DNA of 64,000 nucleotides from Patescibacteria group bacterium (GTDB taxonomy: Bacteria > Patescibacteriota > JAUYIX01 > JBHPHK01), in NCBI GenBank assembly GCA_042569365.1, contig JBHPHK010000004.1:6113-70112 (forward strand), in the 5' to 3' direction. How positions within the stretch are numbered: position 1 is the stretch's first letter; every line of letters begins with the position of its first letter. Below are positions 5,499 through 63,286 of the stretch, in pieces. The notes under the pieces were generated by a model, which saw nothing but the letters and a program-made list of their open reading frames with translations, was not told the origin of the DNA and ran no database searches. The translations under genes and the position numbers were made by a program.

Positions 5499-5831
5499 TT
5501 AAGAAAAGGTTTGTGCGGTCTCCGCTTCTATCTTTTGCGTGTTATTTTTTGGTGGAACCTCATCAATCCCGCCGCCGCTCCAGGGATTACACCGCAGTAT
5601 GCGTGCTGTCCCTAAGATAAAACCACCGACAACCCCGTGCTTTAAGACGGATTGTCTGCAGTATTCTGAGCAGGTGGGATGATAACGACAATAACCTTTT
5701 GTGAAAAAATGCCTTACCCAGCTGTGATCTGGCGATATCGTAACCTGATATAGACGAATTAAATAAGCTAAAACAAGACTCGGCAATCCAAGCGCTTGTT
5801 TTATGAATGATTTAATTATGTTTGAGGCCAT
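5499..5831 (-). CDS. yidD: membrane protein insertion efficiency factor YidD
   Basis: It carries the hallmark CRYHPTCSEY...RCNPWSGGGIDEVP. Confidence 0.9.
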   Translation of the reverse strand: MASNIIKSFIKQALGLPSLVLAYLIRLYQVTISPDHSWVRHFFTKGYCRYHPTCSEYCRQSVLKHGVVGGFILGTARILRCNPWSGGGIDEVPPKNNTQKIEAETAQTFS

Positions 5832-6172
5832 ATTTTTGATCTTTTCAATAATGTGTAAATTTCTGCCTCAATCTCTTGATAGGTTTTCCCGGCAAAATCG
5901 CTGCGCACAACAATTATAAAGAGTAAGTTTGCCGGCAATTCATCAATTATGCTTTCTATAATAGAGCGGACCTGGCGTTTGATTCTATTCCTGTCCGTAG
6001 CTTTCTTCGCAACCTTTTTACTAACCACGATCGTGCCTCGGGGAGGGTATTCCACACCATCTTTTTCCCATGAAACATGAATTGTAGCATCCTTACTATG
6101 GAAACGGCGCCCTTCCTTGAATATACGGTCTATTTGGCGCTGTTTGCGTAATCTATTGTGACGTTTGAGCAT
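5816..6172 (-). CDS. rnpA: RNase P protein component
   Basis: 118 aa, basic, with the motif VSKKVAKKATDRNRIKRQVR. It lies directly downstream of rpmH. Confidence 0.85.
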   Translation of the reverse strand: MLKRHNRLRKQRQIDRIFKEGRRFHSKDATIHVSWEKDGVEYPPRGTIVVSKKVAKKATDRNRIKRQVRSIIESIIDELPANLLFIIVVRSDFAGKTYQEIEAEIYTLLKRSKIWPQT

Positions 6173-6222
6173 GTTGATAGGTTGAGGAAATCCTCCCTAT
6201 TTATCAACAGGAAGATAAAAAA

Positions 6223-6360
6223 TTAGACCGCTAATCGCTTACGGTTTTTTTGGCGGCGTTTTGATAATACACGACGACCTGTTGTTGAGCTGCTCCTCTT
6301 ACGAAAACCGTGAATTTTTGCTCGACGGCGCTTTCTGGGCTGATATGTACGTTTTGGCAT
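6223..6360 (-). CDS. rpmH: 50S ribosomal protein L34
   Basis: This ORF is not in the track (45 aa). The reverse strand translates to [45 protein letters not shown], a canonical L34 sequence. Confidence 0.9.
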
Positions 6361-19531: not shown

Positions 19532-20575
19532 ATGAAAATAGCTCACCTAACACCAAGCGTTACAAGATTCCCTCCTCGTGGAGACCAGGGACGTTATCGT
19601 TTGGTAAATCTATTAATCGAAGGGCTTAGTGCAAAAAAACATAAAGTAACTTTGTATGCTCACAAGGACTCAACGACCAGTGCTGAACTTATTTCGATTG
19701 ATTCCTTACCGCTTGAGGGCCGTTCTCGTATAGAGAAATTGAAGAATGTGACCCTCTCCACTAATTTATTGATTTCAAGGGCTTATCAAGACGCAAAGAA
19801 GTATGACGTTATTCATAGTCACTTCAATGATAAGCATCTAATGTTTAATGCCTTAGTCGATGTTCCGACAGTTGTTACTCAGCATTGGCCAATAACTGAA
19901 GAGATGGATCATATTTTAAGTCAGGCAAATCTAAAAAATTTACATATCGTTCCGATCTCCAAGGCGCAGAAAAAAGCTAATCCAAAATTGCCATACACTC
20001 AAGTCGTTTACAATGGCATAGAGGTAGACAAGTTCAAATTTCGACCTGAATCAGGCAAATATCTAGCAAACTTAAGTCGTGTTATGCCTGAAAAAGGCAC
20101 TCGTGATGCGATTAAAGTGGCTAATAAAGCAAAATTGCCTTTGGTGATCGCAGGAAAATCTAAACATAGTGATAAGGCGCGGGCATATTGGCCGGAGGTT
20201 GAGAAGGCTCTCATTAAATCGGCTTATGCGAAATACCGCGGCATGATTCCACACAAAGAAGTGTCAAACTTTTTGGGACATGCCAAAGCTCTTATCTTCC
20301 CGATCAAGTGGGAGGAACCTTTTGGGTTGGTCATGATCGAAGCGATGGCTACCGGCACACCGGTGATCGCGTATGGACGCGGGTCTGTCCCTGAGATTGT
20401 GAAAGATGGCGTGACAGGGTTTATTGTGAATTCTGTGCGGGAGATGGCAAAGGCTGTTAAAAAAATTGATCAGATCGATCGCGCCGCTTGTCGTAAACAT
20501 GTGGAAGACAATTTTTCTGTACAGCAGATGGTGGAAGGTTACGAAAAAGTTTATAAATCACTAAAGAAAAAATAA
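19532..20575 (+). CDS. GT4 glycosyltransferase, paralogue 1 of 3
   Basis: 347 aa. It carries the conserved block WEEPFGLVMIEAMATGTPVIAYGRGSVPEIV..GVTGFIV, which is shared with the next two genes. Confidence 0.85.
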   Translation: MKIAHLTPSVTRFPPRGDQGRYRLVNLLIEGLSAKKHKVTLYAHKDSTTSAELISIDSLPLEGRSRIEKLKNVTLSTNLLISRAYQDAKKYDVIHSHFNDKHLMFNALVDVPTVVTQHWPITEEMDHILSQANLKNLHIVPISKAQKKANPKLPYTQVVYNGIEVDKFKFRPESGKYLANLSRVMPEKGTRDAIKVANKAKLPLVIAGKSKHSDKARAYWPEVEKALIKSAYAKYRGMIPHKEVSNFLGHAKALIFPIKWEEPFGLVMIEAMATGTPVIAYGRGSVPEIVKDGVTGFIVNSVREMAKAVKKIDQIDRAACRKHVEDNFSVQQMVEGYEKVYKSLKKK

Positions 20576-20578
20576 ATT

Positions 20579-21634
20579 ATGCGTATTGCGCAGGTTGCTC
20601 CGCTTTATTTGCCAGTTCCTCCACCGGGTAGGGGCGGTATTGAGCTGATGGTTTCATATTTAACTGAAGAATTAGTGAAACGCGGGAACGACGTAACGCT
20701 TTTTGCGAGTGGAGATTCACAGACAAGCGCAAAGCTAGTGAATGGTGCTAAAAAAGCGTTCACTTTTGAAAAAGATTTTGAAAATTGGCAGAAAGGCAAG
20801 TCGAGTGCGCTGACAACTCAACATATTGAGAAAGTATTTGAGCAAGCTGACCAGTTTGAAATCATTCATGGCCATTTTAATCAAATATTCCCGACTGTCG
20901 CTGGTAGATCTAAGACACCATCGGTAATGACGTATCATTTACCGATCAAGCCAGAAGCACATGACAAATATCTGAAGACATCGAACTGTCATTTCGTGTC
21001 ACTGACCAAATCACAGCAGGCTGGCCTGCCAAATTTTATAGGAACTGCACCGAATGGTATTCCGATTGATAAAATTCCGTTTAATGCCAAAAAGAAGAAC
21101 GAACTGATTTTTGTCGGGCGCATGGCTACAAAAAAAGGTCCGCATTATGCAATCGAAGCAGCAGAAAAAACTGGCTTGCCGCTGTTTATGCTCGGAAAAT
21201 CATATCCAAACATCGCAGAATACTGGCAGTACTATCAAGAAAAAGTTAAGCCAAGAATCGATGGAAAGAAAATCAAACACATAGAAGAGGTGTCAAATGT
21301 TGAGGCGCTCAAATATATGAGTCAGGCGCGTGCCTTGCTGATGCCGATCGAATGGGAAGAGCCTTTTGGTCTGGTCATGATCGAGGCAATGGCTACCGGT
21401 ACGCCGGTGATTGCCTTTAGGCACGGTTCTGTTCCAGAAGTAATTGTGGATGGCAAAACAGGCTTTATTGTTGATACAATAGAAGAGATGATTGAAGCGA
21501 TCGGAAAGCTTGATCAAATCAATCCGGCAGATTGTCGCAAACATGTAGAACAAAACTTTACGGTCGAGAAAATGGCTGATGCTTATGAAAATATTTATGA
21601 AAAAATCCTCAAACAAGGCTCCCACAAAAAATAA
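20579..21634 (+). CDS. GT4 glycosyltransferase, paralogue 2 of 3
   Basis: 351 aa. It shares the C-terminal block (WEEPFGLVMIEAMATGTPVIAFRHGSVPEVI) and has the N-terminus MRIAQVAPLYLPVPPPGRGGIE. Confidence 0.85.
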   Translation: MRIAQVAPLYLPVPPPGRGGIELMVSYLTEELVKRGNDVTLFASGDSQTSAKLVNGAKKAFTFEKDFENWQKGKSSALTTQHIEKVFEQADQFEIIHGHFNQIFPTVAGRSKTPSVMTYHLPIKPEAHDKYLKTSNCHFVSLTKSQQAGLPNFIGTAPNGIPIDKIPFNAKKKNELIFVGRMATKKGPHYAIEAAEKTGLPLFMLGKSYPNIAEYWQYYQEKVKPRIDGKKIKHIEEVSNVEALKYMSQARALLMPIEWEEPFGLVMIEAMATGTPVIAFRHGSVPEVIVDGKTGFIVDTIEEMIEAIGKLDQINPADCRKHVEQNFTVEKMADAYENIYEKILKQGSHKK

Positions 21635-54220: not shown

Positions 54221-56368
54221 ATGAATAAAAAACTTACCCAAATGAAATCCGACACAAGCATTGGCGAAGAAAACTGCCACGCTAAAGACTCACATTTAAT
54301 AGTACGATTCGCTTTGATAGACACCGTTGCTGCGGCTGTCTTATTGTTAGTGATTACGGGTGCATTGTTCTTGGTGCGCAATCAACCCGCGCCAGAAGTA
54401 AGCACCGTAGCTGAAACAAATGGTACTACTGCGCAAATAGGTAAGCCAATAGATCCGAGGGATCCGCCTGGCACTGGTGTTATACTTCAAGGAAAGATAG
54501 ATACAGCGTTACTTCTTGAACGCGTTAACGGCGCTCCCCTCAATCAGCATAATTATCCTCACACTGTTGAGGTCGGAGATCTAGTTCAATATCGTCTGGA
54601 CTATAGGGCTTTTGGTATAACTTTAGAAGCGCCAGTTGAAATAGCTTCAGCGTACAATCCTGGTTATTTACGCTTTGTCGGAATGTATGGCGACCATATT
54701 GGCCCAGATCAGCCAATTACCCAAGGTATCTTGCACTGGCCGGACGCTACTAGTGGTGCAGATATTCCAATGTTTGAAGTTAGAGTAATGAAGCCCATGT
54801 TTAGGGTAATCAAGGCAGGAACTAATCCAAATACAGATATTTCATTTCAGGCTACGGCTGATGCTACTGATGGTGAAACATATATTGATAATATAAAATA
54901 CTCTCCGTTAACTGTTATCAATATTCCACCGGCACCGTCCGTAACTGTTGACTCAAGCTCGCTTCTGACATCAACCTCGGTAGAGATCCAAGATCTATCT
55001 CGCTACCGCATCGCGGTTAAAAATACTGGAGCCATAAAACTAGAAGCACCAGTGGTTCTGCACGTGGCTTACAATCCTAAGATCTTCAAATATGTTGGGA
55101 CTGAAGGAGCGCTCTCCGCGTCTTCAGACCAGGACGGTACGATCATCTTTAATGATATTACCAGCGGCAAAGGTCTTGCGGCTGGAACAGGAGCATACAT
55201 TGGGTTGCGTTTGGTAGCAAAAACACCGGGAGCCTCTCCAAGTACAGACGTTCATGTCTATACTTCTGCGCGTGACGCTAGAAATCGTTTAGCGACTGAT
55301 CGTATGACATTAGCGGGCATCACAGTTGTTGCGCCGCCGCCGCCTCCTGCACCGGAACCGGAACCAGAGCCAGAGCTAACTCTGGCCCAACAATTGCAAG
55401 CATTCTTCACTCTTTCACCAGAGCAAGAAGGTGTAGTTAAGACTGTTGTCGCGCCGTCGACTGCGGTGATCAATGCGATCAACCTAGCCGCGGCCGCTAA
55501 TCCGCTCAATATCGGCTATCTCTTCCTCTTGCTCTTCACTGAGCCTTTGCAGCTTCTCTTCCGTCGCCGCCGCGGATCTTACGGCGTCATCTATAACGCG
55601 TTGACGAAGCATCCGCTTTCGCTTGTTATGATCCGTCTTGTTGAAGCTAAATCTGGCCGCGTCGTGAAGACAGCCGTTTCAGATACTAAAGGACGCTTCT
55701 CAATGACAGGCCCTCCAGGTCAATACCGCATTCAGATTTCTAAGGCCGGATTCGTTTTCCCAAGTCAATCTGTTCCAGGTACGCGTGATTCAGGCTTTGC
55801 TAATGTCTATCACGGCAACACCTTCGAATTGACTGAAGAAAATCCGAACATAGTAGCTAGTATTCCACTTGATCCTCCAAAGGCAGAGCGCACCCGCCAA
55901 GCACTCATGCGCAGCAGAGTTTATAATGTGATCCGCAACGTAATTGCCTGGGTCGGTATGGCTGTTGCTGTCATTCTCGTGATCTTGGCACCGAGCCCAT
56001 TGACGATCGGACTGCTTGTAGCACACGTCATCTTCTTCTTCCTCTTCCGCTTCTTTGCTCGTATGCAAGCTCCTCCAACTTGGGGCGCAGTCTACGACTT
56101 CCTAACCGGCAAACCAATCCGCGGTGCTGTGGTTCGCATCTACGACACTCAGTATGAGCGTCTGTTAGACTCGAGAGTCACAAATCGTCGCGGACAGTAT
56201 GGCTTCATAGTCGGGCAGAACGAGTACTTGCTTGACGCTGCGAAGGAAGGATACAAGTTCCCGGCACCAGAGAAGAAAAAACCTCACGACTATCTCGGAG
56301 GTAAATTTACTCCTCGTCGCGGTTCGGTCAGGATGAATATCCCGATCAGTCCCAGTAAGGGCAAGTAA
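54221..56368 (+). CDS. large envelope protein, paralogue A
   Basis: 715 aa. The order is an N-terminal TM helix, two beta-rich repeat domains, a PEPEPEPE linker and a TM block. Two CarboxypepD_reg-like modules follow (VMIRLVEAKSGRVVKTAVSDTKGRFSM..; GAVVRIYDTQYERLLDSRVTNRRGQYGF). Confidence 0.75.
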   Translation: MNKKLTQMKSDTSIGEENCHAKDSHLIVRFALIDTVAAAVLLLVITGALFLVRNQPAPEVSTVAETNGTTAQIGKPIDPRDPPGTGVILQGKIDTALLLERVNGAPLNQHNYPHTVEVGDLVQYRLDYRAFGITLEAPVEIASAYNPGYLRFVGMYGDHIGPDQPITQGILHWPDATSGADIPMFEVRVMKPMFRVIKAGTNPNTDISFQATADATDGETYIDNIKYSPLTVINIPPAPSVTVDSSSLLTSTSVEIQDLSRYRIAVKNTGAIKLEAPVVLHVAYNPKIFKYVGTEGALSASSDQDGTIIFNDITSGKGLAAGTGAYIGLRLVAKTPGASPSTDVHVYTSARDARNRLATDRMTLAGITVVAPPPPPAPEPEPEPELTLAQQLQAFFTLSPEQEGVVKTVVAPSTAVINAINLAAAANPLNIGYLFLLLFTEPLQLLFRRRRGSYGVIYNALTKHPLSLVMIRLVEAKSGRVVKTAVSDTKGRFSMTGPPGQYRIQISKAGFVFPSQSVPGTRDSGFANVYHGNTFELTEENPNIVASIPLDPPKAERTRQALMRSRVYNVIRNVIAWVGMAVAVILVILAPSPLTIGLLVAHVIFFFLFRFFARMQAPPTWGAVYDFLTGKPIRGAVVRIYDTQYERLLDSRVTNRRGQYGFIVGQNEYLLDAAKEGYKFPAPEKKKPHDYLGGKFTPRRGSVRMNIPISPSKGK

Positions 56369-56624: not shown

Positions 56625-58820
56625 ATGGCTCAAAAACCGGCAGATAAGAAAACGGCTGAAGACCCAGCCGAACAAAATTATAGAAAGAAGGAACCGCACA
56701 TGATTTTGCGGTTTGCTTTGATTGATACAGTTGTTGCGGCCGTATTGCTTTTGCTGATCACCGGTGTGCTTTTCATGGTACGTAACTGGCAAATTAACGT
56801 TGAAGAGACCAATTCATTTTCAATAGTCCAGTCAAATCATGTTACAGCACAGGTACCAATTTATATTGATCCTCGTGATAGACATTCTCCTCCTGTAGCT
56901 CCTCTCCCGCCTGCAATTATCATGGCGGTAAACGTTGAGCGCGTGAACGGTATCGCAATCAACCAAAGCGCTGACCCTATTCAAGTAGAGGTCGGTGATT
57001 TGGTGCAATATCGAGTTGACTATAAACCGTGGAGGATAAACTTAATCGCTCCTTTTGATATGGTTCAGTCTTATGATCCCGGTTTTTTGCAATATGTAGG
57101 TATGTATCAAGATATTAATGGAGCCGACCAGCCTGTTACTCAAGGCTTAATACATTGGACAGATGTCAGTAATGGTGAAGATGTGTATTCTACTGAGACT
57201 AGAACAGTAAAACCTGAATATCGAGTGATCCGTGCCGGCATAAGGCCAAACACTAATTTATCGACTGAGTTGTCTTTTGAGTTTGAGAGCGAGACTATTT
57301 ACGGCACTAGTATTTTTGACAAATTAAAAGTAGATAACCCGCCTCCGCTGCCAGTTATCACAGCTTCCAGAAGTTCGCTGAATACAGCAGCTACCATAGA
57401 CGAAAACGAACTCGTGCGTGCACGTATCTCCATTGCCAATACGGGAGAGATTGCAATTGCGGCACCTGTTAAGGTGACTGTTACATATAATGCAAATTAT
57501 CTAAACTACATTGGCACGGAAACAACTACGGGCGCGTTATCTGTTTCATCTGATAATGTAGCGGCAGCGCAGGTCACATCAGGTGGCGCGTTAGTTTGGA
57601 GTGATGCGACGAATGGACATAGCATCGCACCGGGTACGTCAGCCTTCTTAGGAGTGCGCTTCAAAGCTGTTAAGCCTGGTACTCGTCCCAATACAAATAT
57701 TAACATTGCTGTCGCAGCCAAAGACACTCGCGACCGTTCAGCGACAGCTGCTTTTACAATCGCAGGCTTAGTAGTCAACGCGTTGCCAATACCGGAGCCA
57801 GAACCTGAACCAGAGCCAGTAATTAGGCAGGCTCTGCAAACTATTCAAGACTTTTTCACACTAACCCCGGAACATGAAACCGTGGTTAGTACGGTGATCG
57901 CGCCGTCAACTGCGATCATCAATGCGATCAACCTAGCGGCGGCTGCAAATCCGCTCAATATCGGCTATCTTTTCCTATTACTCTTTACCGAGCCGCTTCA
58001 GTTGATCTTGCGGCGCCGTCGCGGATCTTTCAGTGTTGTTTATAATGCGCTAACCAAACATCCTCTTTCACTTGTTATGGTTCGTCTTGTTGAGGCAGAG
58101 TCTGGCCGCATCATGAAGACTGCCGTTTCAGATCCAAAAGGGCGCTTCTCACTTTCCGGTCCTCCAGGTAAATATCGCATCCAGATCACAAAATCAGGCT
58201 TTATTTTTCCAACCAAGACTATAAAGGGCATACGCGATGCCGGTTTTACAAATATTTATCACGGAGACATTTTCGAGCTCACGGCTGATAAGCCAGCGGT
58301 GACCGCTAGTGTTCCGATTGATCCGCCAAAGGCAGACCTAACACATAAAGCGGTCTGGCGCAGTAATCTATATAATAGTATCCGCAACATTATCGCCTGG
58401 GCCGGTATTGTCGTGGCGATGGTCTTGGCCTTAATCGCACCGAGCGCTTTAACGATCGGACTTTTGGTCGCGCACGTCGCTTTCTTCTTCCTCTTCCGAT
58501 ATTTTGCCCGCCTCGAAGCTCCGCCAACCTGGGGGATGGTTTACAATTTCATAACAGGCAAACCAGTACGCGGCGCTTTGGTGCGCATTTATGATGCACA
58601 GTACGAACGCCTGCTTGATTCGAAAGTAACTAATCGTCGCGGACGCTACGGTTTCTTAGTCGGACAGAACGAATACTTGCTTGACGCTGCGAAAGTAGGA
58701 TACCAATTCCCGGCTCCAGAAAAGAAAAAATCCCATGACTATCTGGGAGGCAAGTTTACGCCACACGATTCTGTCAAATTAGACATTCCGATCAAACGTC
58801 AGGCTCGACAGAAGAAGTAA
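56625..58820 (+). CDS. large envelope protein, paralogue B
   Basis: 731 aa with the same architecture as 54221..56368. The C-terminal 330 aa are nearly collinear and highly similar, and the N-terminal ectodomain has diverged. Confidence 0.75.
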   Translation: MAQKPADKKTAEDPAEQNYRKKEPHMILRFALIDTVVAAVLLLLITGVLFMVRNWQINVEETNSFSIVQSNHVTAQVPIYIDPRDRHSPPVAPLPPAIIMAVNVERVNGIAINQSADPIQVEVGDLVQYRVDYKPWRINLIAPFDMVQSYDPGFLQYVGMYQDINGADQPVTQGLIHWTDVSNGEDVYSTETRTVKPEYRVIRAGIRPNTNLSTELSFEFESETIYGTSIFDKLKVDNPPPLPVITASRSSLNTAATIDENELVRARISIANTGEIAIAAPVKVTVTYNANYLNYIGTETTTGALSVSSDNVAAAQVTSGGALVWSDATNGHSIAPGTSAFLGVRFKAVKPGTRPNTNINIAVAAKDTRDRSATAAFTIAGLVVNALPIPEPEPEPEPVIRQALQTIQDFFTLTPEHETVVSTVIAPSTAIINAINLAAAANPLNIGYLFLLLFTEPLQLILRRRRGSFSVVYNALTKHPLSLVMVRLVEAESGRIMKTAVSDPKGRFSLSGPPGKYRIQITKSGFIFPTKTIKGIRDAGFTNIYHGDIFELTADKPAVTASVPIDPPKADLTHKAVWRSNLYNSIRNIIAWAGIVVAMVLALIAPSALTIGLLVAHVAFFFLFRYFARLEAPPTWGMVYNFITGKPVRGALVRIYDAQYERLLDSKVTNRRGRYGFLVGQNEYLLDAAKVGYQFPAPEKKKSHDYLGGKFTPHDSVKLDIPIKRQARQKK

Positions 58821-58860
58821 AACATGCTAATTATGCGCTATAGAGCTTTCTATGGCCATA

Positions 58861-58889
58861 TTGACAAAAGTCCCTTTCAGATCTATAGT
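58861..58889 (+). promoter_or_regulatory. sigma70-type promoter (TTGACA-17-TATAGT)
   Basis: It has exact hexamers and lies 104 nt upstream of the ATP-grasp ATG. Confidence 0.5.
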
Positions 58890-58959
58890 ATAACTACTTA
58901 TTTCTTTAGCGCTAAAACTTATGACGCTTTCAGCAATTTGGCAAGACTAATTATGAAAT

Positions 58960-58992
58960 AAGGTCGGCTAATAACCGACCTTATTTTTATTT
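58960..58992 (+). terminator. hairpin + U-run immediately before the ATP-grasp start (attenuator or terminator of the upstream gene)
   Basis: AAGGTCGG-CTAATAA-CCGACCTT is followed by ATTTTTATTT, which abuts ATG 58993. Confidence 0.5.
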
Positions 58993-59943
58993 ATGAATCA
59001 AATTATTATAGGCTGCCCATATGATAGGATCATTGATCTTAAAAGTGCCCTTAAGACTATCGCGAAGGGAAGTGTTATCGTAGATGTGAACGACGTGTCC
59101 GCAGTAGACTTCGATGCTATTTACGTTGGATCCGATTTCAAGCCTATGCGTATTTCAGATTTTAACGCGTCTTTCATACGTTACCCGTACGACTTAATTC
59201 CTCCACACACCAGTAACTATTCCCGTCGAGAGAAGACAGAGCTTCTCAAAACACTCGCATTGCTTTTTTCTGATGTGTCGATTAATAAATTTTCTGAGAG
59301 CCTTCGGGCCAGGAATAGAATTTACTCTCTAAAGGTTGCTGCCAGTTGCGGGCTTAATATTCCTAGTTCACTTATAGTCAGTCGTAATATTGGTAATTTC
59401 AAGACAGACTTATTTTCTGACAAAGTCGTAACGAAAAGTTTAGGGAATTGTTATTATGCTAAACGACTCAATAACGAAGAAGAATTGACCAAGAAGCAAT
59501 TGTTTTTTACCAAAGATGGCAATGACTCGGCCTATATTTATCCTGCCCATGCAATAAAAAACGCTGAAGAACTTAACGCGCACATAGAAAGTTTTCAAGT
59601 ATCCTTTCTCCAGAATTGTGTAAAGGGTAAGGAGTTTCGTATTTATCTTATCGGTGAAAAAATCTTTTTCTACAGTCGCGAGAAAGTTGACGGCATAGAT
59701 AAGAGTGCAGGCAAAAAAGTGCCCATAGATTCGCCTATAGACAACAAAGAAAAAGTAAAACTATTTACGCTACTAAAGAAGCTTAAACTTCAATATTTAA
59801 ATATCGATGCTGTCATAGATTCGGCGACTAAAAAGTTTATTGTCATCGACATTAATCCTTTTGGTTCTTTGCCGGACTACGACACTGATCCCGAGCCGAC
59901 TCTCGAATTAGCCAGGCTTATTTTAAAAGACAAGAAAAAATAA
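58993..59943 (+). CDS. ATP-grasp ligase (RimK / peptide-ligase-like), AT-rich
   Basis: 316 aa. The patterns NRIYSLKVAASCGLNIPSSLIV, VVTKSLG, EFRIYLIGEKIFFYSRE and YLNIDAVIDSATKKFIVIDINPFGS resemble ATP-grasp central and C-terminal lobes. The call is by motif only. Confidence 0.6.
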   Translation: MNQIIIGCPYDRIIDLKSALKTIAKGSVIVDVNDVSAVDFDAIYVGSDFKPMRISDFNASFIRYPYDLIPPHTSNYSRREKTELLKTLALLFSDVSINKFSESLRARNRIYSLKVAASCGLNIPSSLIVSRNIGNFKTDLFSDKVVTKSLGNCYYAKRLNNEEELTKKQLFFTKDGNDSAYIYPAHAIKNAEELNAHIESFQVSFLQNCVKGKEFRIYLIGEKIFFYSREKVDGIDKSAGKKVPIDSPIDNKEKVKLFTLLKKLKLQYLNIDAVIDSATKKFIVIDINPFGSLPDYDTDPEPTLELARLILKDKKK

Positions 59944-60172
59944 AACATAAAAAAGTCGCACTCTCCCAACAGATGTCGGTACAGTTTTTAGTGTTTAAAT
60001 CTTAATCGTACAAGAAACAATTTATTTATCTGATTTTTTTGTTCAGAGGTTTTTAAAAATCCTTTATCTTAATTTCAACAGACTATTGTGGTAAACTAAC
60101 AACAGGTTATGCACTAACGCATCTTGTGTTAGTTGTACTAGATATCAATAATTCACATAACTATACTATACT

Positions 60173-60415
60173 ATGAAATTTACTTCTTTCGGAATCATGC
60201 AATTGCCTGATGGATCATATCTGCATGCACCAGGCTTTACTAAGAAGATCGTTCAAAAACTTCCCATGCCAGCCGCTGCTATTAAGGGAACTTTCACAGG
60301 AGAATGGGGGAAGTCTGATGACCTGCAAGTAGAAAAAGGGATGAGAATCCTAGGGGTCAATAGATTGGGCAGAGAATTGGGACTTGATCTAGAACGAAAG
60401 ACAGGGACTTTCTAA
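60173..60415 (+). CDS. small protein A (80 aa), member of a local 3-gene family
   Basis: The ORF begins MKFTSFGIMQLPDGSYLHAPGF...GEWGKSDDLQVEKGMRILG. TATACT lies 5 nt before the ATG, so the mRNA may be leaderless. It is collinear with protein C. Confidence 0.5.
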   Translation: MKFTSFGIMQLPDGSYLHAPGFTKKIVQKLPMPAAAIKGTFTGEWGKSDDLQVEKGMRILGVNRLGRELGLDLERKTGTF

Positions 60416-60498
60416 GGTAAATTCTGTCATCTTCGCTTGAGATTAATCTCATATAAACACGAGAAAAAAGCTGCGCCGAACAGAGAGGGGCAGTTTTT

Positions 60499-60573
60499 TG
60501 GTAGTCCCTACGGGAATCGAACCCGTATTTCCACCTTGAAAGAGTGGCGTCCTAACCGTTAGACGAAGGGACC
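60499..60573 (-). tRNA. tRNA-Glu (anticodon UUC), CCA encoded
   Basis: The reverse strand reads GGTCCCTTCGTCTAACGGTTAGGACGCCACTCTTTCAAGGTGGAAATACGGGTTCGATTCCCGTAGGGACTACCA. It folds as a cloverleaf with anticodon loop CTTTCAA and T-loop GGTTCGATTCC, and closely resembles bacterial tRNA-Glu. Confidence 0.9.
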
Positions 60574-60611
60574 AAAATAATCTTAAAGCAGCAGGCTTAG
60601 CTGCTCCGCCT

Positions 60612-60640
60612 ATGCTACTAGTTGCCGATGAGTTTGTCAA
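60612..60640 (-). promoter_or_regulatory. sigma70-type promoter of tRNA-Glu (TTGACA-17-TAGCAT)
   Basis: It reads on the minus strand and lies about 38 nt upstream of the tRNA 5' end. Confidence 0.55.
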
Positions 60641-60709
60641 CATGAACACACTGTCTATTTAAAGTATAATAAAAACAGAATCAACCAACTATAAAGGAGG
60701 TGTTAAGTA

Positions 60710-60877
60710 ATGCCAATTAAACCAATAAGAGGATGGTTCGGATTTCTTCCACTGCCGAACGGCAATTCAATAACTTTCCCGCTTAAGCCAAAGGCTGCAG
60801 AGGCTCTGCTGGAAGTTCTCAAAAGACATAGTTTACCTTTTGATGTTAGAAGATCTGTTGGTCCACCTAAGATTTAG
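60710..60877 (+). CDS. small protein B (55 aa), member of a local 3-gene family
   Basis: AAAGGAGG lies 9 nt before the ATG. The ORF is MPIKPIRGWFGFLPLPNGNSITFPLKPKAAEALLEVLKRHSLPFDVRRSVGPPKI. A terminator follows at 60892..60916 (ACGCCGG-CTCGT-CCGGCGT+TTTT). It is below the track cutoff. Confidence 0.55.
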   Translation: MPIKPIRGWFGFLPLPNGNSITFPLKPKAAEALLEVLKRHSLPFDVRRSVGPPKI

Positions 60878-60964
60878 TGTTGGATAACAAAAACGCCGGC
60901 TCGTCCGGCGTTTTTAGGTAGTGAAATAATTTTCGCGTAGTTAAGTCTTTTTTCCTAAAAAACC

Positions 60965-60993
60965 TTTACAGAACACAAAATCCATGTTACAAT
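60965..60993 (+). promoter_or_regulatory. sigma70-type promoter (TTTACA-17-TACAAT)
   Basis: It lies 61 nt upstream of ATG 61055. Confidence 0.5.
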
Positions 60994-61054
60994 CGGGTTG
61001 TAATAGTTGAGTGAAAGCTCGATTATTCGAATTAATTAGATTAACTAAACAACT

Positions 61055-61318
61055 ATGGCAGAACAATTCAGTGTTTTACTGAATGGGGCAGGTAAGTTTG
61101 TTGCTGCGCCGATATCTGATCAGGCGTATGCAAACTATCCTCATGACAAAGCAAGATTTGAAGTTGATTCGATAGATCCTGGAGTTTGGGGTTCTGGAGA
61201 TACTCTTAAAGACGTATTATCTAGGATCCTGGAGGAAGGAAATCCTGTTGAGCTTAAGTGGATTGAGGGACCTGAGGGTTGGAGAAGGGACTTTGATGGC
61301 ATGATCACACAACCTTAA
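61055..61318 (+). CDS. small protein C (87 aa), member of a local 3-gene family
   Basis: The ORF begins MAEQFSVLLNGAGKFVAAPISD...PGVWGSGDTLKDVLSRILEEG. A terminator hairpin follows at 61345..61378. Confidence 0.55.
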   Translation: MAEQFSVLLNGAGKFVAAPISDQAYANYPHDKARFEVDSIDPGVWGSGDTLKDVLSRILEEGNPVELKWIEGPEGWRRDFDGMITQP

Positions 61319-61445
61319 GAGTAGTTCTTCTTACCTATATAAATAAATAACAGGCCTCGTGCCTGTTATTTATTTTGTTGATTATTTGCATTTCTGCTTT
61401 CAGGCTGATCATTGTATAATAGCGTTAACACTCTAGAGACTATTT

Positions 61446-62444
61446 ATGCCCGAAAATCTGCTTCAGCAGCCAGTCATTCAGATTGATAATGTTACCAAAA
61501 CCTTTCCCGGTAAAGGCTGGTTTAAGCGTCGTGCGAAAGATGTCTTAGCTATCGACCAGGTCTCGTTTGATGTCGCCCACAACGAGATTTTTGGTATTAT
61601 TGGTCCGAACGGCTCGGGCAAGACTACGCTGATCAAGATGATCACGTCTTTTATCTATCAGGATGCGGGGACGATTTGGGTGAATGGAAGAGATACATTG
61701 GAGGACTTCGAGGCACTCAAAGATCAACTCGGTTTTATCATTAGTGAAGAGAGATCTTTCTTCTTTCGCCTTTCGGGTCGGCAAAACTTAGAATACTACG
61801 GCATGCTCCAAAAGATTCCCAGAAAAGAGCTGCATAAGAAAATAGATGAACTACTTGAACGCCTAGAGCTTGCGCCCGCCGCCGATAAGCGCTATCAGGA
61901 ATATTCGACCGGTATGCGCCGTAAGCTTGGCGTAGCACGCGGGCTTCTGGTCGAGCGTCCAATATACCTTTTAGATGAACCGACTACGGCGATTGACCCT
62001 GTTTCAACAGTTACAATCGAAAACCTTATCAGAGAGCTGCGCGATGCCGGACACACAATCTTGTTTTCTAGTCATGATATGCATCAGGTCGAGCGCTTAG
62101 CAGATCGTGTTGGTATTTTAAATAAAGGTCGCCTCATTGGGTTAGGTGAGCCCAGCGAGCTGATCAAGAGGATTCTTTCTCAGTACGACTATTTCATTAT
62201 GGCCATGCTTGATCGGCCGATCACAAAAGACCTTATCCAACAAATTGGTCAGCTAGAAAATATCAAGCATATCGACAGTCCGGATGCTGAACATAAATCT
62301 CTGCGCGTAGTGACCAATAAGCCAAGTAGTGTCGTTGCGCCACTGATTCATATTTTAGGCAAGCAAGAAGACTTGAATGTCATAAACTTCGGCGTGCGTC
62401 AGCCAAGTCTAGAAGAAGCCTTTATTAAAATATCGGGAGTATAA
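61446..62444 (+). CDS. ABC transporter ATP-binding protein (ABC-2/DrrA-like)
   Basis: It has the Walker A motif GPNGSGKTT, the signature YSTGMRRKLG and the Walker B motif IYLLDEPTTAID. An extended -10 (TGTATAAT) lies upstream. Confidence 0.9.
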   Translation: MPENLLQQPVIQIDNVTKTFPGKGWFKRRAKDVLAIDQVSFDVAHNEIFGIIGPNGSGKTTLIKMITSFIYQDAGTIWVNGRDTLEDFEALKDQLGFIISEERSFFFRLSGRQNLEYYGMLQKIPRKELHKKIDELLERLELAPAADKRYQEYSTGMRRKLGVARGLLVERPIYLLDEPTTAIDPVSTVTIENLIRELRDAGHTILFSSHDMHQVERLADRVGILNKGRLIGLGEPSELIKRILSQYDYFIMAMLDRPITKDLIQQIGQLENIKHIDSPDAEHKSLRVVTNKPSSVVAPLIHILGKQEDLNVINFGVRQPSLEEAFIKISGV

Positions 62445-62449
62445 ACTCT

Positions 62450-63286
62450 ATGTTAAAGCGATTCAAACAAGCATTCATGCACTGGTTTTACCGGCTTTGG
62501 GTTTATCTGAAGAGGTCTTTCATAATCACGGCATCTTATAAGACGCAGTTTGTTTTGTCTTTCGTAAATATCTTTCTATCATTCTTGTCTTTCTACTTTA
62601 TAGCTACTTTCTTGGATACGGGCGATAATCCGTTTTTAGTTCAATATGGAGGAAGCTATATCCAGTTTATGGTGGTAGGTGTTATTTTTGCGAGTTTCCT
62701 ATCTTTTGCCTTTTCTTTTATGATGTCGGCCGTGTCTGAGGGAGTAAGCAAGGGAACACTTGAATATCTATTGCTTTCAAAAGTCGGTTTGATCCAGATA
62801 ACGATTATGACCAGTCTATGGAGCATGCTTTTCTTGGTGATCAACACAGCACTGACTCTGACTATCGTCAAGTTCATTTTAGGAGTGACATTTTTCTATA
62901 ATATCTGGCTGATAGCACTTGTTTTGCTTTTGGCTATGTTTGCGATTACGGGGATCGGGATGATCTCGGCGGGTATTATCGTCGTGATTAAGAGCGGTGA
63001 TCCGATTAGTTTTGTTTTCGGAGCTTTGACTGGCTTGCTTTCGGGAGTTGCTTTCCCAGTTGAGATCTTGCCGGCATTCTTACGCGAGATTGGTGAGATA
63101 TTACCAAATACACATGCTCTGACGGCTTTGCGTGAGGTGATGATCAACAATGCTTCGCTATGGGATATCAAAGAGGAGCTAGCTTTCTTATTTATTTCTA
63201 GTGTGATCACTTTAGCGATCGGATATTTTGCTTTTATCTATGGCTTCCACCGAGCGCGCCAAAAAGGTACACTTGCATTACGTTAA
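62450..63286 (+). CDS. ABC-2 type transporter permease
   Basis: 278 aa with 6 hydrophobic helices. It starts 6 nt after the ATPase gene. Confidence 0.8.
   Translation: MLKRFKQAFMHWFYRLWVYLKRSFIITASYKTQFVLSFVNIFLSFLSFYFIATFLDTGDNPFLVQYGGSYIQFMVVGVIFASFLSFAFSFMMSAVSEGVSKGTLEYLLLSKVGLIQITIMTSLWSMLFLVINTALTLTIVKFILGVTFFYNIWLIALVLLLAMFAITGIGMISAGIIVVIKSGDPISFVFGALTGLLSGVAFPVEILPAFLREIGEILPNTHALTALREVMINNASLWDIKEELAFLFISSVITLAIGYFAFIYGFHRARQKGTLALR

What the first reader, a model, noticed from the sequence alone, without database searches (positions are those of the whole stretch)
60173..61318. Local three-member small-protein family with collinear motifs
- **Shared N-terminal motif:** A has FGIMQLPDGSYLHAP, B has FGFLPLPNGNSITFP and C has FSVLLNGAGKFVAAP.
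- **Second motif:** A and C also share G[EV]WG..D.L......RIL, with Trp45-Gly46 at the same residue number in both.
- **Fold resemblance:** A beta-hairpin 'h-h-x-x-P-[DN]-G-x-[YF]-h-x-x-P' followed by a 'G.[TS]..[DE]' helix start is reminiscent of HicB/UPF0150-type antitoxin N-domains. The spacer between the motifs is much longer here, and no HicA-like partner is visible.

Three paralogues clustered around a tRNA next to an ATP-grasp gene are unexplained.
Basis: partly seen in the sequence, partly recalled or inferred. Interest (0 to 1): 0.55.

Follow-up and report, generated by a model that had tools for sequence, protein, structure and literature searches.

The report
Orphan small proteins beside tRNA-Glu
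Three small genes around a tRNA gene in a Patescibacteria genome look genuine but are not one family: two are probably old duplicates of each other with no relatives anywhere, the third is a separate conserved mini-protein, and none resembles a HicB antitoxin.

Summary
The three ORFs and the quoted motifs are in the sequence exactly as described. A is 60173-60415, B is 60710-60877 and C is 61055-61318, all on the + strand, with tRNA-Glu on the minus strand between A and B.

- **A and C.** Standard local comparisons see nothing. A collinear alignment anchored at Met1 over the first 60 residues is well above chance: score 36, about 2 in 10,000 shuffles, and third of all 1770 ORF pairs in the window, behind two obvious adjacent paralogue pairs. 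I read A and C as probable distant duplicates. Both have gene-like codon statistics and no homologue among 5.8 billion proteins.
- **B.** It shares only a 15-16-residue beta-hairpin motif with A (E 0.003-0.02) and nothing with C. It belongs to its own tiny family, with one 53-aa relative, under clear protein-level selection. It is carried as a promoter, Shine-Dalgarno, ORF and terminator cassette.
- **HicB.** Not supported: no profile match, no fold match for B's confident model, and no HicA partner.

The upstream ATP-grasp is nearest to graspetide (RiPP) macrocyclases, and an ABC-2 exporter lies downstream. A precursor-peptide role for A and C therefore cannot be excluded, but it fails the available signatures. 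This is an ordinary finding of low interest.

The parts
60173..60415 (+). ORF A: 80 aa, pI 9.7, orphan small protein (MFC1632803.1)
   Evidence: ORF. The coding score is 0.180 per codon, which is the median of true genes and above all 126 spurious ORFs and all other intergenic ORFs. No homologue among 5.8e9 proteins. The AF2 single-sequence model is unusable, pLDDT 50.
60139..60167 (+). Promoter-like site 6 nt upstream of A's ATG, suggesting a leaderless or very short leader
   Evidence: Only 4 of 38 long genes in the window have a Shine-Dalgarno sequence.
60499..60573 (-). tRNA-Glu (UUC)
   Evidence: ARAGORN. Rfam tRNA match at 64.9 bits.
60643..60701 (+). B cassette 5' part: -10 TATAAT (60665-60670) and strong Shine-Dalgarno AAAGGAGG (60694-60701)
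   Evidence: The -10 element and the Shine-Dalgarno block are conserved in both B-like copies on L022.
60710..60877 (+). ORF B: 55 aa, pI 11.05, a conserved mini-protein with beta-hairpin, helix, strand topology
   Evidence: Homologue P0047 is 53 aa at 76% identity, E 3.9e-15. A third copy of residues 1-31 lies on L022. Codons 6-31 of B vs L022b show 12 identical, 12 synonymous and 2 replacement codons. AF2 gives pLDDT 81 with E8-14, E20-25, H27-39, E45-49.
60894..60915 (+). Intrinsic terminator of B: CGCCGG, loop, CCGGCG, then TTTTT
   Evidence: Read from the sequence. The stem is conserved with a different loop after the L022a copy.
60965..60993 (+). Promoter-like site upstream of C (TTTACA, 17 nt, TACAAT, with TG)
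61055..61318 (+). ORF C: 87 aa, pI 4.4, orphan small protein and probable distant paralogue of A
   Evidence: Coding score 0.175. No homologue. The anchored alignment to A is supported.
61341..61375 (+). Terminator hairpin after C
   Evidence: inverted repeat I4: 15-nt arms, 100% complementary.
58993..59943 (+). Context: divergent ATP-grasp ligase, nearest to graspetide macrocyclases
   Evidence: NCBIfam hits TIGR04187, MvdD and MvdC at E 3e-8 to 3e-7, far below the curated cut-offs. The family profile vs PDB gives MdnC 5.7e-10, AMdnB, CdnC, MdnB and PsnB, and no other ATP-grasp ligase class, only weak CDC123 and ITPK1 matches at E 0.05-0.07. There are 41 homologues, with invariant K148, E214, R216 and D286-x-N288.
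61446..63286 (+). Context: ABC transporter ATPase (61446-62444) and ABC-2 permease (62450-63286)
   Evidence: Pfam ABC_tran 4e-29, and ABC2_membrane_3 and ABC2_membrane at 2e-15 and 8e-13.

Best explanation
The 1.5-kb low-GC spacer between an ATP-grasp gene and an ABC transporter holds a tRNA-Glu and three independently transcribed small protein genes. They are not one family.

**A and C**
- They are a pair of very divergent duplicates: about 24% identity, collinear from Met1, with conserved F, G, AP, P, G-x-W-G, D, L and R-I-L positions.
- They form a taxonomically restricted (orphan) small soluble protein.
- Their charge has diverged: A is basic and C is acidic.

**B**
- It is a different gene: a 53-55-aa basic mini-domain (beta-hairpin, helix, strand).
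- It travels as a self-contained cassette of promoter, strong Shine-Dalgarno, ORF and terminator.
- It is under protein-level purifying selection.

**The shared N-terminal motif**
The motif is a generic hydrophobic strand, P-[DN]-G turn, aromatic strand hairpin. It is not a HicB signature.

**Shown and inferred**
- Shown: the existence of the ORFs, the coding signal, the A-C similarity statistics, B's homologues and its fold class, and the absence of known-family matches.
- Inferred: that A-C similarity reflects duplication, and that the genes are expressed from the predicted promoters.

**Function**
Function is not assignable from homology. My best single mechanistic guess, at about 0.12-0.15, is that A and C are substrates of the adjacent graspetide-type ATP-grasp. 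Otherwise they are lineage-specific accessory proteins of a kind abundant in Patescibacteria genomes.
For: **A-C**
- Anchored banded alignment score 36 against shuffles of -13 +/- 12. It is reached by 24 and 19 of 100,000 shuffles.
- z is 3.3-4.9 over 8 parameter sets, and at most one decoy (a single tie, in one set) reaches the score.
- Only one foreign segment among 3594 decoy starts exceeds it.
- It is the third-best of 1770 window pairs, behind two evident adjacent paralogue pairs.
- MAFFT gives the same alignment.
- Coding scores of 0.180 and 0.175 are the highest of all intergenic ORFs.
- Both are orphans.

**B**
- Homologue P0047 at E 3.9e-15.
- Two cassette copies on L022, with conserved -10, Shine-Dalgarno and terminator.
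- 12 synonymous against 2 replacement codon changes.
- AF2 pLDDT 81.
- B-C shows no similarity. A-B shows the hairpin only.

**The hairpin is generic**
- The same pattern occurs in the Omnitrophota repeat protein P0049 and in blades of the L002 Asp-box propeller.

**No known family**
-.
Against: - The A-C statistic comes from a non-standard anchored alignment. BLASTP, phmmer and unanchored tests are not significant.
- Corrected for all window pairs, the score alone is only p about 0.1-0.6. It becomes about 0.01-0.04 only because the two genes are near neighbours.
- No structure could be obtained for A (pLDDT 50), and C was not modelled.
- The orphan status of A and C rests on a word-indexed search that misses relatives below about 35-40% identity.
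- The A-B hairpin match improves slightly when C is added to A (E 0.017 to 0.0034). A common N-terminal module in all three is therefore not excluded.
Confidence: 0.5

Rival explanations
1. Graspetide (RiPP) gene cluster. A and C, perhaps with B, are precursor or substrate peptides that the upstream ATP-grasp cross-links through side-chain ester or amide bonds. The downstream ABC-2 transporter exports the product or confers immunity.
For: - The ATP-grasp's best matches in NCBIfam and PDB are graspetide macrocyclases, and no other ATP-grasp ligase class appears.
- A lies 229 bp downstream on the same strand with no terminator between them.
- An ABC transporter follows.
- Published work describes CPR-specific graspetide ATP-grasp branches. 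Their precursors fall in mutually unrelated clusters or occur as tandem divergent paralogues, and their loci carry radical-SAM or UbiE-like methyltransferase genes (PMC8939145). I see such genes beside homologues on L001, L013 and L023.
- A Thr/Ser (A T40, C S39) and Asp49 are aligned in A and C.
Against: - No Phhx(1,2)h leader motif lies within the first 30 residues, and there is no GG site in A, B or C.
- The matches to the graspetide models are far below curated cut-offs: 30-33 bits against 350-475.
- No A-, B- or C-like ORF and no conserved small ORF lies next to any of about 25 homologous ATP-grasp loci. The ABC transporter is not conserved there either.
- Conservation between A and C is spread over 60 residues rather than split into leader and core.
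- B folds as a compact domain and has its own promoter and terminator.
- A tRNA on the opposite strand interrupts the supposed cluster.
Confidence: 0.13
2. A true three-member family. A, B and C all descend from one ancestral small protein that begins with the beta-hairpin module, which is the first reader's claim without the HicB label.
For: - The A-B hairpin gives E 0.006.
- The best near-diagonal segment has p 0.002.
- The A+C profile against the B family gives E 0.0034, better than A alone at 0.017.
- The low-confidence model of A starts hairpin, helix, strand like B.
Against: - B-C shows nothing in any test.
- The A-B whole-length anchored score is 1, p about 0.05.
- Beyond the hairpin, the invariant B-family positions (LK.KAAE, H.LPF) have no counterpart in A or C.
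- The hairpin pattern recurs in clearly unrelated proteins.
Confidence: 0.15
3. Three unrelated ORFs. The A-C similarity is also a coincidence that a reader picked out after scanning a whole 64-kb window.
For: - Standard tools find nothing for A-C.
- With 1770 pairs, one null pair at this score is not very unlikely.
- In decoy sets, single sequences reach 35-46 against A and 36 against C.
Against: - The top null pairs are 8-56 genes apart, while A and C are separated only by B and the tRNA.
- The shuffle p is about 2e-4.
- The two proteins have similar length, the same orphan status and the same codon score.
- MAFFT finds the same register.
Confidence: 0.2
4. HicB/UPF0150-type antitoxin N-domains, possibly orphan antitoxins.
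For: B's model is beta-beta-alpha-beta, loosely like the beta-beta-beta-alpha-beta HicB N-domain.
Against: - No HicB or UPF0150 profile match, even at E 10.
- No PADLOC or NCBIfam match.
- Foldseek of B against PDB has a best E of 1.9 and no HicB among the 50 listed matches.
- The PDB sequence search is empty.
- There is no HicA-like ORF nearby, and no C-terminal DNA-binding domain.
Confidence: 0.02

Closest known systems
Graspetide (omega-ester/amide RiPP) precursor peptides of CPR bacteria (Makarova et al. 2022, PMC8939145)
   Same: - They are small ORFs beside an ATP-grasp whose nearest characterised relatives are MdnC, MdnB, CdnC and PsnB.
- They occur as divergent tandem paralogues with no wider family.
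- The host is a Patescibacteria genome.
- An ABC transporter lies nearby.
- Radical-SAM or UbiE-like methyltransferase genes lie near some homologues of the ATP-grasp.
   Different: - There is no Phhx(1,2)h leader motif and no GG site.
- No recognisable Thr/Ser...Asp/Glu core repeat is present.
- Conservation is spread over 60 residues.
- The ATP-grasp scores tenfold below the family cut-offs.
- No similar small ORFs lie at homologous loci.
HicB / UPF0150 antitoxin N-terminal domain
   Same: The proteins are small, with a hairpin followed by a helix. This applies to B's model only.
   Different: - There is no sequence or fold match.
- One strand fewer is present than in the HicB N-domain.
- There is no HicA partner and no DNA-binding domain.
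Taxonomically restricted (orphan) small-protein genes of Patescibacteria
   Same: - They have no homologues.
- They are 55-87 aa long.
- They sit in a low-GC variable spacer next to a tRNA.
- PGAP annotates them as hypothetical proteins.
   Different: Here two of them, A and C, show a detectable duplication relationship. The third, B, has a rare relative in another metagenome.
Beta-propeller blade hairpins (Asp-box propeller on L002; 40-aa repeats of Omnitrophota protein P0049)
   Same: - The motif h-x-h-P-[DN]-G-x-aromatic is shared.
- A shares the exact heptapeptide QLPDGSY with the propeller encoded right after an ATP-grasp homologue on L002.
   Different: - A blade profile built from that propeller does not recognise A (E 9) or C.
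- B's matches to the repeat proteins are sums of individually insignificant repeats.

Membership tests
HicB/UPF0150 antitoxin | Sequence match to HicB or UPF0150 profile families | tested here: not met
   Pfam gives zero families for A, B and C at E<=1 and at E<=10. NCBIfam, PHROGs and PADLOC give no relevant hit.
HicB/UPF0150 antitoxin | Beta-beta-beta-alpha-beta N-domain fold matching solved HicB structures | tested here: not met
   B's model (pLDDT 81) has a best Foldseek E of 1.9 against PDB, and no HicB appears among the listed matches. A's model is too poor to test. C was not modelled.
HicB/UPF0150 antitoxin | Adjacent HicA toxin gene | tested here: not met
   No such ORF lies in 58800-61450. 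The other ORFs there have negative coding scores. The neighbours are an ATP-grasp, a tRNA and an ABC transporter.
Graspetide precursor peptide | Encoded next to a graspetide-clade ATP-grasp macrocyclase | tested here: inconclusive
   A is 229 bp downstream on the same strand. The ATP-grasp's best hits are graspetide maturases, but at 30-33 bits against cut-offs of 350-475 and a PDB E of 5.7e-10.
Graspetide precursor peptide | Leader signature Phhx(1,2)h within about 30 N-terminal residues, and a GG-type cleavage site (PMC8939145) | tested here: not met
   The signature is absent within the first 30 residues of A, B and C. The only match in any of them is PAAAI at A P33, and only if Ala counts as hydrophobic. 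There is no GG. The motif is present in 16-22% of unrelated N-termini, so the test is weak.
Graspetide precursor peptide | Core with conserved Thr/Ser and Asp/Glu (or Lys) partners | tested here: inconclusive
   Only A T40 / C S39 and D49 align. There is no known core pattern such as TxxxTx(6-10)Dx(1-4)D.
Graspetide precursor peptide | Related small ORFs accompany related ATP-grasp genes | tested here: not met
   No A-, B- or C-like ORF and no conserved small ORF lies in L001-L026.
Local paralogue family A/B/C | Pairwise similarity above chance: A-C | tested here: met
   Anchored alignment with p about 2e-4 by shuffles, at most one decoy tie, and rank 3 of 1770 pairs. Local methods are negative.
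Local paralogue family A/B/C | Pairwise similarity above chance: A-B | tested here: inconclusive
   Hairpin only, with E 0.006, 0.017 and 0.0034. Whole-length p is about 0.05.
Local paralogue family A/B/C | Pairwise similarity above chance: B-C | tested here: not met
   No BLASTP alignment. hhalign gives E 0.24. The anchored score is -23, p 0.74.
Low-molecular-weight phosphotyrosine phosphatase (top PDB hit of C) | Match to an independent family profile, and the CX5R(S/T) P-loop | tested here: not met
   A profile of 12 LMW-PTPs does not find A or C among 7018 ORFs even at E<=200. There is no Cys in A or C. Only 2cwd hits, at E 0.3-0.4.
MVL mannan-binding lectin domain (top PDB hit of A) | Significant match to MVL repeats or the Pfam MVL family | tested here: not met
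   E 0.09 from two weak repeat matches. The hit is lost with the A+C profile. hhalign gives E 0.13. There is no Pfam hit.

The most novel reading that the evidence does not exclude
A and C are tandem, fast-diverging substrate (precursor) proteins of a previously undescribed deep branch of graspetide-type ATP-grasp ligases in Patescibacteria. The conserved Thr/Ser, G-x-W-G, Asp segment would be the cross-linked core, and the ABC-2 transporter would act as exporter or immunity system. Leader recognition would use the N-terminal hairpin instead of the published Phhx(1,2)h helix.
Probability: 0.12. Interest if true: 0.6.

Novelty: new member of a known kind. Interest (0 to 1): 0.22.

Why it matters
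As it stands, this matters little. Orphan small proteins and their local duplicates are common in Patescibacteria, and no function follows.

Three modest points remain.

- **Method.** Very divergent small paralogues can be invisible to BLAST and HMMER yet detectable by an alignment anchored at the start codon. That is useful when annotating small proteins.
- **The ATP-grasp.** The adjacent gene belongs to a rare family of 41 members whose only characterised relatives are RiPP macrocyclases. If A and C were its substrates, this would add a new precursor type to the poorly understood peptide chemistry of episymbiotic bacteria.
- **B.** It is a compact, apparently mobile expression cassette. It is also found beside a GIY-YIG-like gene and fused to an EF-1alpha fragment in another metagenome. 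That is odd and unexplained.

Tried and rejected
1. **Standard pairwise tests.** BLASTP, Smith-Waterman and semi-global tests are non-significant for A-C and B-C.
2. **Family libraries.** Pfam (E<=1 and E<=10), PHROGs and PADLOC give no family for A, B or C. NCBIfam gives no relevant family.
3. **Homologue searches.**
   - A and C have none among 5.8e9 proteins.
   - B has one true relative. Its two other hits are sums of weak repeat matches.
   - Phage tblastn and a viral-contig scan give nothing.
   - There are no further copies in the window.
4. **Structure.**
   - A as a single sequence gives pLDDT 50 and is unusable.
   - B's good model has no PDB or BFVD neighbour.
5. **Propeller-blade idea.** A shares QLPDGSY and a 54-aa gapped alignment (E 0.012 in a 1.5-kb target) with the Asp-box propeller encoded after the ATP-grasp on L002. 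A profile of that protein's blades does not recognise A or C, so I rejected the idea.
6. **MVL lectin, the top PDB hit of A at E 0.09.** The hit is lost with the A+C profile and hhalign gives E 0.13. Rejected.
7. **LMW-PTP, the top PDB hit of C and of A+C at E 0.3-0.4.** The match looked striking (RFEVDS..G.W..G and R[VI]LEE.G). An independent 12-sequence family profile finds neither A nor C. Rejected as a chance match to one sequence.
8. **Integration island at the tRNA.** There is no att-like direct repeat and no integrase.
9. **Non-coding RNA.** Rfam finds only the tRNA above its gathering score. Four other matches (E 0.03-1) lie far below their family cut-offs.
10. **Conserved neighbours of the ATP-grasp.** There are none: contexts are heterogeneous.
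11. **The ATP-grasp family's RYPYDLI motif.** It was not found in the stored, truncated part of the published graspetide ATP-grasp set.
Full report
**What is there.**
- The window comes from a Patescibacteria MAG contig. The three ORFs are PGAP 'hypothetical proteins' ACFL1U_01505, 01515 and 01520, and each is a singleton 90% cluster.
- A is 60173-60415 (80 aa), B is 60710-60877 (55 aa) and C is 61055-61318 (87 aa), all on the + strand. tRNA-Glu(UUC) lies on the minus strand at 60499-60573 between A and B.
- Upstream is a 316-aa ATP-grasp (58993-59943). Downstream is an ABC ATPase with an ABC-2 permease (61446-63286).
- The stretch 58800-61400 has GC 0.33-0.45, mostly below 0.41, against 0.47-0.50 in the adjacent upstream gene and the ABC ATPase gene.
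- Each small ORF has a promoter-like site. B and C are followed by intrinsic terminators.

**Are they genes?**
- I trained a 3-periodic Markov model on 44 long ORFs of the window. A scores 0.180 and C scores 0.175 per codon.
- That is the median of true-gene chunks. It is above all 126 out-of-frame ORFs and is the highest of every intergenic ORF in the window.
- B scores only 0.017. However, it has a strong Shine-Dalgarno sequence in a genome where only 4 of 38 genes have one.
- B also has a real homologue, and 12 synonymous against 2 replacement codon differences to a second copy.
- I accept all three as coding.

**Are they one family?**
- Local methods say no for A-C (BLASTP E about 1) and for B-C (no alignment). 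For A-B they show only a 15-residue hairpin, at E 0.006.
- A-C scores 36, with 15/62 identities. Shuffles give -13 +/- 12, and only 24 and 19 of 100,000 reach 36.
- Against 543 decoy N-termini, z is 3.3-4.9 over eight parameter sets, with at most a single tie.
- Among 3594 decoy starts, only one foreign segment beats it for A and one ties it for C.
- Among all 1770 pairs of the window's 60 ORFs it ranks third. The two pairs above it are obvious adjacent paralogues, and the next null pair scores 27.
- MAFFT reproduces the register.
- Allowing for window-wide selection, and for the fact that the two genes are near neighbours, I estimate p about 0.01-0.04. I put the probability that A and C are distant duplicates at 0.6-0.7.
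- A-B whole-length is p about 0.05 and B-C is null.
- Profile tests keep only the hairpin: E 0.017 for the B family against A, and E 0.0034 against A+C.

**What is B?**
- An exhaustive HMMER search of 1.84 billion representatives found one true relative, P0047 (53 aa, 76% identity, E 3.9e-15). The two larger hits are sums of weak repeats.
- P0047 sits on an 836-bp metagenomic contig, L022. It lies after an ORF with a GIY-YIG-like motif and is followed by a terminator.
- After that comes a second copy of the promoter, the Shine-Dalgarno sequence and the first 31 codons. This copy runs in frame into an archaeal or eukaryotic-type EF-1alpha from about residue 41, so it lacks the P-loop.
- AF2 on B plus P0047 gives pLDDT 81 with topology E8-14, E20-25, H27-39, E45-49.
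- Foldseek finds nothing in PDB (best E 1.9) or BFVD (best E 0.13).
- B is therefore a separate, conserved, probably mobile mini-protein of unknown fold class.

**HicB.**
- There is no profile hit, no fold hit, no HicA partner and no DNA-binding tail.
- The hairpin pattern h-x-h-P-[DN]-G-x-aromatic also occurs in clearly unrelated repeat and propeller proteins.
- I reject this reading.

**Context and the RiPP alternative.**
- The ATP-grasp belongs to a rare family of 41 proteins. Its invariant residues include a D-x-N pair, which I take from general knowledge of ATP-grasp enzymes to be a likely metal site.
- Its only NCBIfam hits are ATP-grasp RiPP maturases (E 3e-8 to 3e-7, far below cut-offs). 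Its family profile hits MdnC, AMdnB, CdnC, MdnB and PsnB in the PDB and no other ATP-grasp ligase class.
- Makarova et al. 2022 (PMC8939145) describe CPR-specific graspetide branches. Their precursors are unrelated between clusters or occur as tandem divergent paralogues. Many loci have no identifiable precursor, and radical-SAM or UbiE-like methyltransferases often lie nearby.
- I see such genes near homologues on L001, L013 and L023.
- This makes 'A and C are substrates of the ATP-grasp, exported by the ABC-2 system' the most interesting surviving reading.
- Against it:
  - The published leader and GG signatures are absent.
  - No related small ORF and no conserved neighbour accompanies any of about 25 homologous ATP-grasp loci.
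  - A-C conservation is spread along 60 residues.
  - A tRNA on the other strand splits the supposed cluster.
- I give this reading about 0.12-0.13.

**Leads that failed.**
- A shares QLPDGSY with an Asp-box propeller encoded right after the ATP-grasp on L002. A blade profile does not recognise A or C.
- The top PDB sequence hits, MVL lectin for A (E 0.09) and LMW-PTP 2cwd for C and for A+C (E 0.3-0.4), looked suggestive by eye. The two are mutually inconsistent.
- An independent LMW-PTP profile built from 12 plasmid genes finds neither protein.
- Rfam finds nothing above its gathering score but the tRNA, and there are no att-like repeats.

**Verdict.**
The three-member family is not supported, a two-member A-C pair probably is, B is something else, and HicB is wrong.
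- Function remains unassigned. The only mechanistic lead is the neighbouring graspetide-like ligase.
- Limits: C was never modelled. A and C were searched only with the word-indexed tool. Synteny in sibling genomes could not be examined.

Noticed in passing
window 58993-59943 (+): The divergent ATP-grasp ligase belongs to a rare family of 41 members, found in Patescibacteria, Cloacimonadota, Bacteroidota, a Thiodiazotropha MAG and others. Its only characterised relatives are graspetide macrocyclases (MdnC, MdnB, CdnC, PsnB). No conserved neighbour or precursor was found, and the invariant N-terminal motif is RYPYDLIPPHT.
   Followed up: partly
L022 1-836 (ENA ERZ23498359 contig): There are two tandem copies of the B cassette. 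The second copy's first 31 codons run in frame into an EF-1alpha lacking its P-loop region. The upstream ORF carries a GIY-YIG-like motif (VIYYLVN...LIYIGKA). I cannot tell whether the fusion is real or an assembly artefact.
   Followed up: partly
whole window (38 long genes): Only 4 of 38 long genes have a Shine-Dalgarno sequence. Many have a TATAAT-like box within about 10-25 nt of the start codon, which suggests widespread leaderless or short-leader mRNAs. B is one of the few genes with a strong Shine-Dalgarno sequence.
   Followed up: partly
window 54221-56368 and 56625-58820 (+): Two adjacent large paralogous membrane proteins carry CarboxypepD_reg-like domains. They share a 300-nt stretch at 79% identity (56000-56299 and 58449-58748).
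   Followed up: no
window 19532-20575 and 20579-21634 (+): An adjacent paralogue pair of 347 and 351 aa was detected by the same anchored N-terminal alignment, with score 81.
   Followed up: no
L002 3962-5008 (and the identical L010): A membrane-anchored Asp-box beta-propeller (repeats h-x-h-PDG-x-Y...S-x-DG-x-x-W) is encoded 8 nt after an ATP-grasp homologue. Its first blade contains QLPDGSY, identical to A residues 10-16.
   Followed up: yes
L011 1572-1979: A secreted 135-aa protein made of Y-[TS]-DPYGNTSG repeats lies about 400 nt downstream of an ATP-grasp homologue. It is rich in Thr/Ser and Asp, but it has a signal peptide, so it is unlikely to be a RiPP precursor.
   Followed up: no
window 5499-6360 (-): This looks like the classic rpmH, rnpA, yidD cluster. 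The L34-like peptide is [22 protein letters not shown], followed by an RNase P protein-like ORF and a YidD-like ORF. I recognised it by eye only. L34 scores negative in my coding model, which shows the model's limits for short basic proteins.
   Followed up: no
window 58800-61400: A low-GC stretch (0.33-0.45, mostly below 0.41, against 0.47-0.50 in the adjacent upstream gene and the ABC ATPase gene) covers the ATP-grasp, A, the tRNA, B and C. No integrase or att-like repeat was found.
   Followed up: partly
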